From Alphaproteobacteria bacterium (GTDB taxonomy: Bacteria; Pseudomonadota; Alphaproteobacteria; RF32; CAG-239), in NCBI GenBank assembly GCA_045578445.1, contig JAZNKG010000007.1, forward strand, positions 9,838 to 73,837: 64,000 nt of DNA, in the 5' to 3' direction. A program made the translations under genes and the position numbers. Positions 21,248 to 26,221 of the stretch are shown piece by piece (the stretch's first letter is position 1; each line of letters begins with the position of its first letter). The notes under the pieces were generated by a model. The model ran no database searches and was not told the origin of the DNA. It was given only the letters and a program-made list of their open reading frames with translations.

Positions 21248-24200
21248 CTAAGCTCCGCGTTGAAGTCTTATTCTAAGTTTATTTATGAGATTATTATTTG
21301 TATCTTTTGTGGCTATATGTTTAGTACTTACACCTAATTTTCTTTCTTTTTTCTCTGTTTTTTCTAGTTTTTCTATTTCTTCTTCCGATTTATCTTTACG
21401 TTTTACATGAGCATACATTATAGGTTTTTCTCTTTTTTCTATGCTTATTGATGAAGCAATCTTTTTAATACCCTCTGATAAAGATTTTGCCCATCCTTTG
21501 CGGAAAACACCAAATTTATTTAATATGGCTTTTGCTTTTATGGTATTATATACATCTTTATCAACTAATCCGGAATCTAAAATTGCACCGGCTATCTGAC
21601 TTACTTCTTCTGCTGTTAGACTTTTTTCTGGTGTAACAATTTCGCCCCTATCATTTTTAACTTCTTTTTGATAAGTAATTATATCAGATAGAGCGGTGAT
21701 TCCTCTTTGAACATCATCTATGTATAAAGTATCAAAATTAAAAATTTTTCCGAGTTTATCTATTTGTTTTACCTTTTTCAGCATATAATCTGTAATATTT
21801 TCTCCATTACGGGCAGCTCTTATCATGCCGTATAACATCTTACCGAGAAGCACTTTATCTCTTTTATTTGGACCTTTTGCCATTTGAGCTCCAGTATCAA
21901 ATATTCCAATAACAAAATTAGAAAAATCTTTTTGTTCAAAATTTTGCTGTCCTTGGTGACGGTCGGTATCCCATTTTTTACCTGATAATAAATTACAAAG
22001 TTCTAATGTAACGTATGCCACGGCCATATCGTGTTTTTGTTCTGTTGTTAACTTAGATGAAGTTAGAGCGCTACCACCTGCCATATCTATTATTTTGTAT
22101 ACTTGTCCATCTTTACCGGAGCCATAACTTTGCCATCTTGCAACATGTGGCTCAAATTCGCCTTTAGGAGTGACTATTTTTATCTCTTCATAAATTCTAA
22201 TAGCTTCACAAAATTTTTGATAATCCTTTTCTACATCTGTTTCATCCATTGCTGAAAGTTTTGCTTGTTTAGCGATGTTTTTTAATGGTTCATATTTTTT
22301 ATCTACTTTAGCTAAATCATTAATTGTTCTTGTTATCATATCCATACCTGATTGAGCCAATTCTTTTGCATGTGGGCGCATTATAGCAACAACTTTATCT
22401 TCTCCATTATATTTAATTTTTGTAGTTATAAAGAATGAGCCGGCTCCTAACACTTTATCAACGCGAGTGATTTTTGCTAATTCTTCATCCGGTAAAGTTT
22501 CTTTAAGCAAATCAAAAATTTCTGCTCTGGTCGGAATATCAGCTTTATCACGTAATTTAGCCAGTGGCTTTCTTATTTCTGGAGAAAGTTGCGGAAGATA
22601 ACTCAATAATTGCCCGAATTTAACAAAAGCAGGTCCTTTGTTTTCAAAAAACATTTTCAAGCCTTCACCTATAGCTTCACCATCTTGTTTTTGGCTGTTT
22701 TTATCGCGTTTATTGGCTGAAATCAGGGCCGCTAGAATTAAATCTTTTTCGTAATCTTGAAGATTATTATACACTGTCTTTACAACCAAATGAGCATCTT
22801 TATAATATGGTGAATCTTCTTTGAAATGCATATTGATAGTTAAATTCAATAATTCTTCTGGATTTTCCGAATATGAATGAAGTAAGCTTTTCATCATAAC
22901 TGCTCTTACAGCCAAATCTGCATGCCAAAAGTTCTCATGCACCATTTTTAAGGTATATTTATCTAAAACAATGTTTTTATCAGATGAAGATAGCGATATT
23001 ATTATACCTTTTCTCGTATCTCTGCCCGGTTTACCTGCTGATGTAAAATCTAATAATTTATCTGCAGATTCATCAGAATAATCTTCAGTAAGAAAATTTA
23101 TAAAACTTTCTGCTCTTTTTTTATCTTGTGCGATATAACTCATCACTGCTTCGGCTACTCTTGCGTGATAGTCATATTTTTCAGGAGTGTTTCCATCTAC
23201 AAGAGCGGCTCCTTTTTCTTCTAACATTTGAGCTGTTAATTCTTGAGAAACCACCTTATCGGAGATACTTCTTAAAATTGATTGTTTAATTGTTTGAGAA
23301 AATTTATTTTCTCTTCTAACATTCCCATTACCGTATGATACGGGGATATCTTTTAATATTTCATCTGTTAATAAAGATATTTTTTCAAAGTATTCTTCAG
23401 AACCATCATCTATTCCTAATTTATCTGCTTGATATTGTGCGTAAAAATCTATAAGTTTATCTTGTTCATTAAGAAAATCTATATTTTCACTTCGTCCTTC
23501 TCTTTCCTCTTTTCTGGTTGTAAAGCTGTTACTTAGCAAATCTTCTGCAATTTGTACAGCTTCTTCACGATTAGGATGATTTATAATATCTTTTACTATA
23601 GACTTGAAAAATGTTTCTTTATTTGCATATTTTTCTGAAAATAATCCCCTTTGTTCCATAACTTCGTATACGTACAATTTATCTTGTAAGCTTAATTCTT
23701 TAAATTTTCCTCGTTCCTCAATTGCTTTAGCAAAAATATCCGGTACAATAGGAGCATATCTTTCTCGACTAATACAAAAACGAATACTCTCCATCGTTTT
23801 TTTGATATCAAAATCTTTTCCTTGACGCAATTCATCTGCAACAATCAAAATTCCTGCATATTTCCATGCCTTTTTTTGGTATTCTTCCGGTCTGTTATAA
23901 TCATGTAATATTTTTGTTCTATCTTCCGATATTTGAGCTGTTTTTATAACATTTTGCAGCAATTCTGCTTTTTCTCTGTATCTGAAGTTTTCCATAGTTA
24001 TTCGTTCTAATGGAGCTTCTGCACTACTATATTCACCAAAAAAGTTATACGTTTGAGAGCTTCTTGACATTCTTCTATAAACTTTTTGCTTAAGCGCTAT
24101 AATTCGACGATTATACTCTTCTTCATACTGATCTATGTAATATTTGTACTCTTGTCCATCTTTTTCTCGAGTTGCAGATTGTTTATATTGGCTCTCTGGT

Positions 24201-26221: not shown

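What the first reader, a model, noticed from the sequence alone, without database searches (positions are those of the whole stretch)
21248..26221. Second, divergent paralog with the same protease-to-kinase-like architecture only 2 kb away
The 1657-aa ORF repeats the end-to-end plan of giant ORF 1.
- N-terminal block: NAFFIE / IIAHECGHYLWNE (codons 25915-25929) / QEVAADLRAVDLLMNGGYNP / HGNSLARVDYIEDY.
- C-terminal block: GPAFVKFGQLLSYLPQLSPEIRKPLAKLRDKA (about 22611-22640), LGAGSFFITT, DETDVEKDYQKF, WDTDRHQGQQNF, GIFDTGAQM (about 21885-21905).

The two proteins also align in the segment preceding the kinase-like domain (DDPYYQDANN vs EDSPYYKDAHL). They align again in a central patch (KDLSIYEQKEIYDLMSHKSLF vs KELSLQDKLYVYEVMEQRGLF).

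Elsewhere the middle regions differ greatly in sequence and length (a 230-aa difference). An old duplication followed by diversification of the central, possibly target-binding, region is typical of effector or toxin families. It is not typical of housekeeping enzymes.
Basis: partly seen in the sequence, partly recalled or inferred. Interest (0 to 1): 0.8.

Follow-up and report, generated by a model that had tools for sequence, protein, structure and literature searches.

The report
Paired giant protease–UbiB-like kinase genes
The window carries two old, diverged copies of a giant gene that joins a zinc protease, a long helical scaffold and an unusual relative of the UbiB "dark kinase" family; the gene family is large, undescribed and found mainly in poorly known gut bacteria.

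Summary
ORF2 (21248-26221, minus strand, 1657 aa) is an intact gene and a true paralog of ORF1 (13435-19101). BLASTP gives E 8e-93, and clade profiles align collinearly end to end (E 1e-127).

Both proteins have four parts:
- a complete soluble M48 zinc-protease domain;
- an all-helical solenoid of about 950 aa;
- a divergent UbiB/ABC1 kinase-like domain;
- a basic tail.

The UbiB assignment rests on hhalign (98.5%), NCBIfam TIGR01982 (E 7.5e-9) and top Foldseek hits to MSMEG_1954, COQ8A and Rv3197. The active site is atypical. The KxGQ motif, the DxDRH loop and the DFG aspartate are kept. The canonical beta3 lysine is replaced, a Gly-rich loop replaces the Ala-rich loop, and the Asn is Gln.

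The duplication is deep, with separate ORF1-type and ORF2-type ortholog clades. The family has at least 489 clusters at 50% identity, nearly all giants. Identified members are low-GC gut or rumen Alphaproteobacteria MAGs, including reduced-genome Candidatus Enterousia.

The enzymatic ends are under strong purifying selection (dN/dS 0.02-0.12). The scaffold evolves faster.

The effector or toxin reading is unproven. There is no signal peptide and no secretion genes in the window. The only hint is virB3-virB4 adjacency in a sister clade.

The parts
21248..26221 (-). ORF2, 1657 aa: M48 protease, helical solenoid, UbiB-like domain and basic tail (the finding)
   Evidence: Orthologs P0001-P0035 are 40-98% identical.
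26244..26272 (-). Promoter-like site for ORF2 (TTGCAA-17-TATAAT). A GGGAG Shine-Dalgarno lies at 26228-26232.
   Evidence: This is a consensus match only; expression was not measured.
25667..26149 (-). ORF2 M48 zinc-metalloprotease domain, about residues 25-185. HECGH is at 25916-25930, the third-ligand Glu (in QEVAAD) at 25856-25873, and VHGNSLAR at 25721-25744.
   Evidence: Pfam PF01435 E 8e-10, 39.3 bits against cut-off 20.3. Profile hit to PDB 3c37 E 1.4e-8. Foldseek 3c37 TMt 0.56. H98, E99, H102, E118, D122, H161 and R167 are invariant in 42 sequences.
22772..25654 (-). ORF2 all-alpha solenoid-like scaffold, about residues 190-1150. Its most variable core is residues 561-800 (nt 23822-24541).
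   Evidence: AF2 model pLDDT 82.5, almost entirely helical. Only weak solenoid matches such as SF3B1, importins and CRM1. Conservation is low and dN/dS 0.2-2.
21482..22684 (-). ORF2 divergent UbiB/ABC1 kinase-like domain, residues 1180-1580. Motifs: KFGQ 22610-22621; LGAGSF 22433-22450; VVAIMRP, with the beta3 Lys replaced by Ala, 22373-22393; WDTDRHQGQQN 21941-21973; FDTGA 21887-21901.
   Evidence: hhalign against canonical UbiB: probability 98.5%, E 2.1e-15. NCBIfam TIGR01982 E 7.5e-9. AF2 pLDDT 77.9, with top Foldseek hits 7cyr, 5i35 and 5yjz. Motif statistics.
21251..21481 (-). ORF2 C-terminal tail, Lys/Arg-rich (net +8 over the last 40 residues)
   Evidence: Conservation is low.
13435..19101 (-). 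ORF1, the paralog (1888 aa as listed; probable start 19095). HELGH is at 18619-18633 and the UbiB-like domain at 13708-14919, with KFGQ at 14845-14856, WDIDRHAGQQN at 14167-14199 and FDTGA at 14098-14112.
   Evidence: Orthologs are P0036-P0051.
19595..21244 (+). GtrII-like membrane glucosyltransferase gene lying between the two paralogs and convergent with ORF2. It is not part of the system.
   Evidence: Pfam PF14264 E 1.4e-10. The gene is present in L082 but not between the paralogs in L081.
19246..19527 (+). 93-aa ORF of unknown function between the paralogs, followed by a terminator-like hairpin at 19552-19569
   Evidence: A 93-aa gene is called at the same place in L081 and L082. No family hit.

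Best explanation
**What it is.** ORF2 is a real, intact gene. It is the second member of an ancient paralog pair that belongs to a large, uncharacterised family of giant soluble proteins. Each protein joins:
1. a complete minimal M48 zinc metalloprotease;
2. a helical solenoid of about 950 residues;
3. a divergent UbiB/ABC1-type protein-kinase-like domain with its KxGQ lid;
4. a short, usually basic tail.

**Shown here.** Paralogy, domain identities, conservation of the catalytic residues, the deep age of the duplication, the selection pattern and the size of the family.

**Inferred mechanism.** The UbiB-like module binds nucleotide and acts as an ATPase or an atypical kinase.
- Its catalytic core is invariant: DxDRH, the DFG Asp and the ExD Glu.
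- Its loop carries Gly at the position where an Ala-to-Gly change gave human COQ8A/ADCK3 protein-kinase activity.
- It lacks the canonical beta3 Lys, so the chemistry may be unorthodox.
- The module works together with the M48 protease on targets picked by the fast-evolving solenoid.
- The two paralogs, with their different solenoids, would then serve different targets.
- By analogy with both parent families, the targets are probably membrane-associated or lipid-bound.

**Where it acts.** I lean, weakly, towards the cytoplasm or the inner face of the bacterium's own membrane, because there is no export signal and the orthology looks like that of core genes. Delivery into a partner cell is not excluded.
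For: **Paralogy:**

**M48 domain:**

**UbiB-like domain:**
- hhalign probability 98.5%, E 2.1e-15, against comparators that Pfam confirms as ABC1.
- TIGR01982 E 7.5e-9 for ORF2 and 2.6e-10 for ORF1.
- Best Foldseek hits are the UbiB-family structures 7cyr, 5i35 and 5yjz.
- The distant family member L033 passes the Pfam ABC1 threshold and also has M48.

**Active-site pattern in 177 members:** KxGQ Lys and Gln in 169 each; both Asp and the His of DxDRH in all 177 and its Arg in 170; DFG Asp in 174; ExD Glu in 169. The beta3 position is Ala, Ser, Thr or Gln in most, and Lys in only 19.

**Background on UbiB features:** KxGQ, Ala triad, invariant Lys and the A339G result come from PMC8956952. COQ8 ATPase activity comes from bioRxiv 10.1101/2022.03.22.485346.

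**Selection:** dN/dS is 0.09-0.11 for M48 and 0.02-0.12 for the UbiB-like domain. The scaffold gives 0.2-0.5, with one segment at about 2.

**Deep duplication and multiple copies per genome:**

**Family size:** 489 clusters at E<=1e-30, and the top 150 are nearly all giants, apart from about a dozen shorter sequences of 320-850 aa. HExxH...ExxAD is found in 140 of 178.

**Cytoplasmic features:** in 54 members the hydrophobicity maximum reaches the rough TM cut-off of about 1.6 in only four proteins, and in ORF1 and ORF2 it is 1.23 and 0.90; there are no signal peptides.

**Context:** the genes have their own promoter-like sites and sit among housekeeping genes.
Against: - No biochemical activity was tested for any member.
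- Loss of the beta3 Lys and the Asn-to-Gln change could mean that the C-terminal domain is a pseudoenzyme.
- Pfam ABC1 does not detect ORF1 or ORF2 even at E 10. The PDB profile search found no UbiB protein.
- AF2 coordinates could not be inspected, so the active-site geometry and the domain contacts are unknown.
- The coupling between protease and kinase-like domain is inferred only from their constant co-occurrence.
- The lean towards an intracellular site rests on missing signals. Substrates of type IV, III or VI secretion also lack Sec signals.
- The related lineages are proposed to depend on partner cells (PMC12306168). In one clade the genes sit next to virB3-virB4.
Confidence: 0.6

Rival explanations
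1. **Translocated effector or toxin.** The proteins are exported, most plausibly through a VirB-type type IV secretion system, into a partner or host cell. There the protease and the kinase-like domain act on host targets selected by the variable solenoid.
For: - In 13 of 34 loci from related genomes (the Enterousia-like clade plus the deep-branching L030), the family gene lies within 0-10 kb of virB3-virB4, in several different arrangements.
- There is no Sec signal, and most tails are net basic: +7 to +12 in most of the ORF1-type clade (10 of 17 sequences) and +8 in ORF2.
- There are two or three copies per genome and tandem copies. The middle region evolves fast.
- Related Rs-D84 bacteria have genomes of about 0.7-1.6 Mb, no respiratory chain and a proposed partner-dependent lifestyle (PMC12306168). 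A quinone role for the UbiB-like domain is therefore unlikely.
Against: - No secretion genes occur near the genes in the window, in its close relatives or in the ORF1-type loci.
- The same clade also conserves LpxK, LpxC and pilus genes as neighbours. The virB adjacency may therefore be inherited synteny in small genomes.
- Tails in the very clade that has virB adjacency are near neutral, -3 to +3.
- Architecture and orthology are conserved over deep divergence, unlike typical effector repertoires.
- No eukaryote-like targeting motif was tested.
Confidence: 0.3
2. **Pseudokinase or regulatory module.** The UbiB-like domain has lost catalysis. It serves as a ligand-binding, lipid-binding or protein-binding regulatory domain for the only true enzyme, the M48 protease.
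For: - The canonical beta3 Lys is absent in ORF1, ORF2 and 158 of 177 members.
- The metal-binding Asn position is Gln in 161 of 177.
- Pfam ABC1 does not recognise the domain.
Against: - The catalytic-loop motif DxDRH is essentially invariant (Arg in 170 of 177). The DFG Asp is present in 174 of 177, the ExD Glu in 169 of 177, and KxGQ is nearly invariant.
- dN/dS of 0.02-0.12 is the lowest in the protein.
- Such conservation of catalytic positions is unusual for a dead enzyme.
- Other kinase-fold enzymes without canonical residues are active with different chemistry, for example SidJ (PMC6858067, abstract). SelO is a further example, from my own knowledge.
Confidence: 0.2
3. **Anti-phage defence or mobile-element cargo.** The giant proteins are defence effectors, or are carried by mobile elements.
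For: - Two distant members sit in suggestive contexts. P0144 lies beside a recombinase gene and an S24 peptidase gene.
- P0186 lies beside a weak AbiEii hit.
Against: - No PADLOC hit.
- No relatives in IMG/VR viral contigs.
- The window and the ortholog loci are ordinary chromosomal regions with partly conserved synteny.
- GC content does not differ from the surroundings.
Confidence: 0.04
4. **Ordinary UbiB acting in quinone biosynthesis, fused by chance to a protease.**
For: The KxGQ motif and the UbiB-like fold.
Against: - The score against the UbiB equivalog models is far below the cut-off: 34.7 bits against 487.55.
- No C-terminal transmembrane anchor.
- Altered active site.
- The identified members come from lineages reported to lack respiratory chains (PMC12306168).
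- The fusion is constant across at least 140 members, so it is not a chance event.
Confidence: 0.02

Closest known systems
UbiB/ABC1/ADCK atypical kinase family (E. coli UbiB, human COQ8A/ADCK3, PDB 5i35; Pfam PF03109, TIGR01982)
   Same: - Bilobal kinase-like fold with the family-specific KxGQ element ahead of the N-lobe.
- ExD Glu, catalytic-loop Asp and DFG Asp are kept.
- COQ8A is among the best structural matches. Remote sequence homology is significant.
   Different: - The beta3 Lys is replaced by Ala in ORF2 and Gln in ORF1.
- A GxGS loop stands in place of the Ala triad.
- The catalytic loop reads DxDRHxGQQN instead of HxDxHPGN.
- There is no transmembrane anchor.
- The domain sits at the end of a 1650-1900 aa protein, behind a protease and a solenoid.
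- It falls below the curated family thresholds.
- The host lineages probably have no quinones.
Mycobacterial ABC1-family proteins MSMEG_1954 (PDB 7cyr, 7cz2) and Rv3197 (PDB 5yjz, 5yk1, 5yk2)
   Same: They are the top Foldseek hits (E 1e-9 to 7e-6). Both are bacterial UbiB-family members solved with nucleotide.
   Different: Sequence identity is only 13-19% and TM-scores are modest (0.34-0.57). These are proteins of about 400 residues with no protease or solenoid.
Soluble M48 peptidases (Geobacter Q74D82, PDB 3c37; the BepA type, which joins M48 to TPR repeats, from general knowledge)
   Same: - HExxH, the downstream Glu ligand (ExxAD) and the conserved His/Arg block are all present.
- The fold matches 3c37 (TMt 0.56).
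- As in BepA, the protease is followed by helical repeats.
   Different: - The spacing between HExxH and the Glu ligand is much shorter.
- There is no signal peptide, whereas BepA is periplasmic.
- The helical region is about 950 residues and ends in a kinase-like domain.
ATP-dependent proteases that carry ATPase and protease in one chain (FtsH, Lon). This is an analogy only, from general knowledge.
   Same: A nucleotide-using module and a protease sit in one polypeptide. In FtsH the protease is also a zinc metalloprotease that acts on membrane proteins.
   Different: There is no AAA+ domain, since the nucleotide module has a kinase fold. No evidence for oligomeric rings or for coupling was obtained here.
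Kinase-fold bacterial effectors with non-canonical chemistry (Legionella SidJ, PMC6858067; the SelO family, from general knowledge)
   Same: A kinase-like fold that lacks some canonical residues yet has a strongly conserved active site. This raises the possibility of an activity other than phosphorylation.
   Different: No detectable sequence or best-hit structural relation to these families. Neither translocation nor activity has been shown.

Membership tests
UbiB/ABC1 atypical kinase family | Protein-kinase-like bilobal fold closest to solved UbiB-family structures | tested here: met
   The AF2 model has pLDDT 77.9. The seven best Foldseek hits are all UbiB-family entries (MSMEG_1954 7cyr/7cz2/7cy2, COQ8A 5i35, Rv3197 5yjz/5yk1/5yk2), ahead of eukaryotic-type kinases.
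UbiB/ABC1 atypical kinase family | KxGQ motif or domain preceding the N-lobe, which is unique to the family (PMC8956952; bioRxiv 10.1101/2022.03.22.485346) | tested here: met
   GPAFVKFGQ is present. K and Q are invariant in the 35-sequence alignment and present in 169 of 177 wider members.
UbiB/ABC1 atypical kinase family | Score above the curated family thresholds (Pfam PF03109, NCBIfam TIGR01982) | tested here: not met
   There is no Pfam ABC1 hit even at E 10. TIGR01982 gives 34.7 bits against a cut-off of 487.55, although the E-value is 7.5e-9. Remote homology is nevertheless firm: hhalign 98.5%, and the distant member L033 scores 23.8 bits against the cut-off of 22.9.
UbiB/ABC1 atypical kinase family | Invariant beta3 Lys (VAVKVQRP) | tested here: not met
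   The position is Ala in ORF2 and Gln in ORF1. Over 177 members it is Ala 53, Ser 29, Thr 26, Gln 23, Lys 19 and Arg 14.
UbiB/ABC1 atypical kinase family | Ala-rich loop (AAAS) in place of the Gly-rich loop | tested here: not met
   The loop reads L-G-A-G-S-F. The first Gly is present in 176 of 177 members. The residue before Ser is Gly in 133 and Ala in 44.
UbiB/ABC1 atypical kinase family | Catalytic-loop Asp, Mg-binding Asn and DFG Asp | tested here: inconclusive
   The catalytic Asp is invariant (177 of 177) and the DFG Asp is present in 174 of 177. The Asn position is Gln in 161 of 177, with an Asn two residues later in ORF1 and ORF2. The geometry could not be inspected.
UbiB/ABC1 atypical kinase family | Membrane anchoring and a role in quinone or prenyl-lipid metabolism | not testable with these tools
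   No convincing transmembrane segment was found: the hydrophobicity maximum is 0.90 in ORF2 and 1.23 in ORF1, and reaches about 1.6 in only 4 of 54 proteins. Related lineages are reported to lack respiratory chains (PMC12306168). Function was not assayed.
Peptidase family M48 | HExxH zinc-binding motif plus a downstream Glu ligand | tested here: met
   H98, E99, H102, E118 and D122 are invariant in 42 sequences of both clades. HExxH...ExxAD is found in 140 of 178 wider members.
Peptidase family M48 | Score above the Pfam PF01435 gathering threshold, and an M48 fold | tested here: met
   ORF2 scores 39.3 bits and ORF1 29.6 bits against a cut-off of 20.3. The profile search hits PDB 3c37 at E 1.4e-8. 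Foldseek against 3c37 gives TMt 0.56 over 232 columns.
Peptidase family M48 | Zinc-dependent proteolytic activity | not testable with these tools
   This needs biochemistry.
Type IV secretion (VirB/D4-type) effector | The producer encodes a T4SS | not testable with these tools
   Only 64 kb of this genome is available and it holds no T4SS gene. Relatives in the Enterousia-like clade do carry virB3-virB4 next to family genes.
Type IV secretion (VirB/D4-type) effector | C-terminal translocation signal (positively charged tail) | tested here: inconclusive
   Tails are net +8 in ORF2, +9 in ORF1 and +7 to +12 in most ORF1-type orthologs (10 of 17). In the clade that sits next to virB4 they are only -3 to +3.
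Type IV secretion (VirB/D4-type) effector | Demonstrated translocation into a target cell | not testable with these tools
   This needs reporter assays or proteomics.
Known anti-phage defence systems (PADLOC) | Match to a defence-system protein model | tested here: not met
   ORF1 and ORF2 have no hits at E<=0.01.

The most novel reading that the evidence does not exclude
The family is a new class of nucleotide-coupled metalloprotease used for interaction with a partner or host cell. In this reading, reduced-genome gut Alphaproteobacteria export these giants, for example through their VirB-type system. The UbiB-like domain has been re-tooled: Gly-rich loop, no beta3 Lys, a DxDRH...Q catalytic loop. 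It would bind or extract lipid-anchored, perhaps isoprenoid-modified, targets, or modify them with unorthodox chemistry. The M48 domain would then cleave them. The rapidly evolving solenoid would give each paralog its own target.
Probability: 0.15. Interest if true: 0.85.

Novelty: new variant of a known kind. Interest (0 to 1): 0.6.

Why it matters
- **UbiB biochemistry.** UbiB/ABC1 proteins are an ancient and widespread kinase-like family, and their biochemistry is still disputed. This is a large natural branch, at least 489 clusters at 50% identity. It keeps the KxGQ lid and the catalytic Asp residues. It has dropped the 'invariant' Lys, and it carries Gly where an engineered Ala-to-Gly change gave human COQ8A kinase activity. 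It is always fused to a zinc protease. That makes it a ready-made comparison set for asking what the UbiB fold can do outside quinone biosynthesis.
- **Gut symbiont biology.** The genes take up about 1% or more of the very small genomes of uncultured gut and rumen Alphaproteobacteria. These bacteria are thought to depend on partner cells. The genes are therefore prime candidates for the core biology of those organisms, either as unusual membrane or protein quality-control machines or as interaction factors.
- **Annotation.** Current annotation is only 'M48 family metalloprotease' or 'hypothetical protein'.

Tried and rejected
**Searches that did not detect the UbiB relation**
- Pfam on the isolated C-terminal domains found nothing relevant, even at E 10.
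- Single-sequence and profile HMMER searches against PDB sequences found only the M48 part. The weak Piwi/PAZ matches (E 0.2-0.8) and the match to a designed helical repeat were dismissed as noise.

**Central region**
- Foldseek on residues 1-1149 gave only generic solenoid matches above E 1e-3. No specific fold could be assigned.

**Alternative contexts tested**
- The PADLOC defence models gave no hit.
- The IMG/VR viral contig scan found no relatives.
- Rfam and tRNA scans found nothing near the genes.

**Literature**
- Searches for M48 with UbiB, for Rs-D84 with type IV secretion, and for UbiB-like effectors found no description of this architecture.

**Conserved-neighbour analysis**
- The recurring neighbours are mostly housekeeping genes: YchF, dTDP-rhamnose genes, LpxK, LpxC and pilus genes.
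- Other large genes next to family members are unrelated. One is an autotransporter-like protein and one is pyruvate:ferredoxin oxidoreductase.

**Tandem arrangement**
- The ORF2-ORF1 tandem arrangement is not conserved in more distant genomes.

**Positive selection**
- One segment of the solenoid gives dN/dS of about 2. By my own rough back-calculation from dS and the site counts, this rests on only about four synonymous differences. dS is also very uneven along the gene (0.03-0.63). I therefore treat it as relaxed selection or a recombination mosaic, not as demonstrated positive selection.

**Limits of the tools**

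
Full report
**1. Observation**

ORF2 is an uninterrupted 1657-codon frame at 21248-26221 on the minus strand. A sigma-70-like promoter match (26272-26244) and a GGGAG ribosome-binding site lie 7 nt before the ATG.

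ORF1 (13435-19101, minus strand) lies 2146 bp downstream. It has its own promoter-like site and ribosome-binding site. The spacing, and the start of ortholog P0036, point to 19095 as its real start.

BLASTP aligns the C-terminal halves at 30% identity over 889 columns (E 8e-93). It aligns the N-terminal blocks at 29% identity (E 1e-13).

With composition correction switched off, the real score is 357 bits. Two hundred shuffles that preserve local composition give 28 +/- 3 bits, maximum 38.5.

Profiles of the two ortholog groups align collinearly over almost their whole length (ORF2 2-1635 against ORF1 13-1852, E 1e-127). Confidence is low only around ORF2 residues 250-400 and 550-750.

**2. 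Domain anatomy**

*N-terminus.* Pfam Peptidase_M48 is above threshold in both proteins. A family profile hits the soluble M48 peptidase 3c37 in two blocks, which cover HExxH and the ExxAD Glu ligand. The AF2 model of residues 1-1149 (pLDDT 82.5) matches 3c37 with TMt 0.56. H98, E99, H102, E118, D122, H161 and R167 are invariant in 42 sequences from both clades. The protease therefore looks catalytically competent.

*Middle.* Residues of about 190-1150 are almost entirely helical in the model. They give only weak, generic alpha-solenoid matches such as SF3B1, importins and CRM1.

*C-terminus.* Pfam sees nothing, even at E 10. Four independent lines still place the domain in the UbiB/ABC1 family:
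- hhalign of the family C-domain against 19 canonical UbiB proteins gives probability 98.5% and E 2.1e-15 over 273 columns. Pfam confirms a sample of those comparators as ABC1 at E 1e-57 to 1e-75.
- NCBIfam TIGR01982 (UbiB) hits ORF2 at E 7.5e-9 and ORF1 at 2.6e-10, far below the equivalog cut-off.
- The AF2 model of residues 1150-1657 (pLDDT 77.9, pTM 0.74) has MSMEG_1954, COQ8A and Rv3197 as its best PDB matches, ahead of ordinary protein kinases.
- A distant family member, L033 (1466 aa), carries the same architecture and passes the Pfam thresholds for both M48 and ABC1.

*Solubility.* Fifty-four family proteins have no signal peptide. The 19-residue hydrophobicity maximum reaches the rough TM cut-off in only four of them, and it is 0.90 in ORF2 and 1.23 in ORF1. 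Most tails are net basic.

**3. An atypical active site**

The family keeps the KxGQ motif that defines UbiB proteins. It also keeps the ExD Glu, a catalytic loop reading DxDRH (both Asp and the His invariant in 177 of 177, the Arg in 170) and the DFG Asp (174 of 177).

Three things differ:
- The 'invariant' beta3 Lys of UbiB (VAVKVQRP) is Ala in ORF2 and Gln in ORF1. It is Lys in only 19 of 177 members.
- The metal-binding Asn position is Gln in 161 of 177.
- The Ala triad of UbiB proteins is replaced by G-x-G/A-S.

According to PMC8956952, an Ala-to-Gly change in that triad (A339G) gave human ADCK3 protein-kinase activity, and the Lys is considered invariant. COQ8 is currently viewed as a lipid-activated and phenol-activated ATPase (bioRxiv 10.1101/2022.03.22.485346).

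The combination seen here argues for a retained but unorthodox nucleotide-dependent activity rather than a dead domain. The catalytic Asp residues are strictly conserved, this domain has the lowest dN/dS in the protein, and yet the Lys is missing. This is inference, not a test.

**4. Evolution and distribution**

*Ortholog clades.* All 35 word-index hits to ORF2 are ORF2-type: 800-3300 bits against ORF2 and about 300-395 bits against ORF1. A separate search with ORF1 returned 16 ORF1-type orthologs at 38-95% identity, 1877-2491 aa.

*Tree.* An NJ tree of the C-domain (84 sequences, UbiB outgroup, no support values) shows a monophyletic family. It has a basal pair (P0052, L033), an ORF1-type clade and an ORF2-type clade. 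The ORF2-type clade also contains further paralog sub-clades in Candidatus Enterousia. The duplication is therefore old.

*Copy number.* Several MAGs carry two or more copies. One MAG (RGIG4178) has an ORF1-type and an ORF2-type copy on different contigs. Enterousia MAGs have head-to-tail tandems.

*Arrangement.* The window arrangement is shared with a near-identical Logan contig (L082). In L081 (91% identical) no GtrII-like gene is called between the paralogs, so the pair was probably once directly adjacent. In more distant genomes the ORF1-type gene sits alone among housekeeping genes.

*Family size.* An exhaustive profile search with the mid-C plus UbiB-like region found 1277 representatives at E<=1e-3, 692 at E<=1e-10 and 489 at E<=1e-30. 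The best 150 are nearly all proteins of about 1000-2900 aa (about a dozen shorter sequences of 320-850 aa are probably fragments), and the match ends near the C-terminus. HExxH...ExxAD is present in 140 of 178 members that have enough N-terminal sequence. One member carries an extra glutamine-synthetase catalytic domain.

*Hosts.* Named genomes are gut or rumen Alphaproteobacteria MAGs, including Candidatus Enterousia. Order Rs-D84 is described as having genomes of 0.67-1.6 Mb. It lacks respiratory chains and most biosynthesis, and probably depends on partner cells (PMC12306168). Whether the organism in the window belongs to that order was not tested. The taxonomy of most of the 489 clusters is unknown.

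**5. Selection**

I computed Nei-Gojobori dN/dS against close orthologs.

| Comparison | M48 | Middle region | UbiB-like |
|---|---|---|---|
| ORF2 vs L081 | 0.094 | 0.52 (241-560), about 2.0 (561-800), 0.20 (801-1160) | 0.075 |
| ORF2 vs L082 | 0.096 | 0.22-0.36 | 0.124 |
| ORF1 vs L082 | 0.108 | 0.34 (301-990), 0.18 (991-1375) | 0.024 |

The value of about 2 rests on very few synonymous changes. dS also varies from 0.03 to 0.63 along the gene, which suggests recombination. I therefore claim a relaxed or diversifying scaffold, not proven positive selection.

**6. Context**

The window is ordinary chromosome: GpsA, MscS, hydrolases, NUDIX, AcrAB-type pump, Fe-ADH, glycosyltransferases, NAD salvage, CTP synthase, TIM, SurA-like protein, Fmt and trigger factor. 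GC content shows no anomaly. No secretion system lies in the 64 kb.

In 13 of 34 loci from related genomes (the Enterousia-like clade and the deep-branching L030), the family gene lies within 0-10 kb of virB3-virB4, in several arrangements. LpxK, LpxC and type IV pilus genes are equally conserved neighbours there. There are no PADLOC hits and no viral-contig relatives.

**7. Interpretation**

*Firm.* This is an ancient paralog pair from a large, undescribed family that fuses an intact M48 protease, a long solenoid and a divergent UbiB-like domain.

*Inferred.* The two enzymatic ends cooperate on targets chosen by the variable solenoid, and the paralogs have different targets. By analogy with both parent families, the targets are membrane-associated or lipid-bound.

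*Unresolved.* It is not known whether the proteins act inside the producer or are delivered to a partner cell. I lean to action inside the producer because there are no export signals, the orthology resembles that of core genes, and the context is housekeeping. Delivery remains possible at about 0.3. It rests on virB adjacency in one clade, basic tails, multiple copies, and the lifestyle of the host lineages.

A classical quinone-biosynthesis role is rejected. The 'effector or toxin' label is not demonstrated.

**8. Novelty**

Both domain families are known. The architecture, the size of the clade and the altered UbiB active site appear undescribed. No paper was found, and database names are only 'M48 family metalloprotease' or 'hypothetical protein'. 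I rate it a new variant of a known kind, with interest 0.6.

Noticed in passing
window 19595-21244 (+); L081, L082: A GtrII-like membrane glucosyltransferase gene sits between the two paralogs in the window and in L082. No such gene is called at that place in L081, where the next genes called after the ORF2-type gene are a 93-aa ORF and then a 228-aa reading frame that runs to the end of the contig. The 228-aa frame was not compared with ORF1. This looks like an insertion into a former tandem pair.
   Followed up: partly
window 19246-19527 (+) and 12730-13383 (-): Two ORFs with no family hits flank ORF1. One is a 93-aa ORF with a terminator-like hairpin after it, and a gene of that size is also called at the same place in L081 and L082. 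The other is a 217-aa ORF 51 bp downstream of ORF1 on the same strand, with a counterpart in L082. Their function is unknown. They could be accessory partners of the giants.
   Followed up: partly
L012, L013, L014, L018-L021, L025, L027, L030 (for example L012:2785-6123): In Enterousia-like genomes a virB3-like gene, virB4 (PF03135) and a 205-aa putative lipoprotein with an HExxH-like motif lie next to the family gene, in several orientations. These reduced genomes therefore encode at least part of a type IV secretion system.
   Followed up: partly
L084:4956-13550 (protein P0144): A 2864-aa family member carries an additional glutamine-synthetase catalytic domain (PF00120) after the UbiB-like domain. 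It is flanked by a resolvase/recombinase gene and an S24 peptidase gene, which may indicate a mobile-element context.
   Followed up: no
window 21248-26221 compared with L081:4528-9507: Synonymous divergence between the two ORF2 orthologs varies more than 20-fold along the gene, from dS 0.03 in residues 561-800 to 0.63 in the M48 domain. This suggests recombination between strains within the gene.
   Followed up: no
window 41564-47783 (+): Two DUF4402 proteins, an Fn3-like protein of 257 aa and a 1042-aa protein with a CarboxypepD_reg domain lie in a row. This may be a small fimbrial or surface-structure cluster.
   Followed up: no
window 36365-39939 (+): A compact NAD salvage cluster: a cytidylyltransferase-like protein, an isochorismatase-family (PncA-like) protein, nicotinate phosphoribosyltransferase and NAD synthase. 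It fits an organism that scavenges cofactor precursors.
   Followed up: no
(protein P0074, assembly GCA_016648615.1): One family member lies on a 12.8-kb contig of bacterial genes within an NCBI assembly whose file was too large to read. This might be a symbiont contig inside a eukaryotic genome assembly, but it was not verified.
   Followed up: no
L006:11615-15934: A 1439-aa protein directly downstream of the ORF2-type gene in a sheep-rumen MAG has a signal peptide, and from its sequence it looks like an autotransporter. No domain search was run on it. It is unrelated to the family.
   Followed up: no
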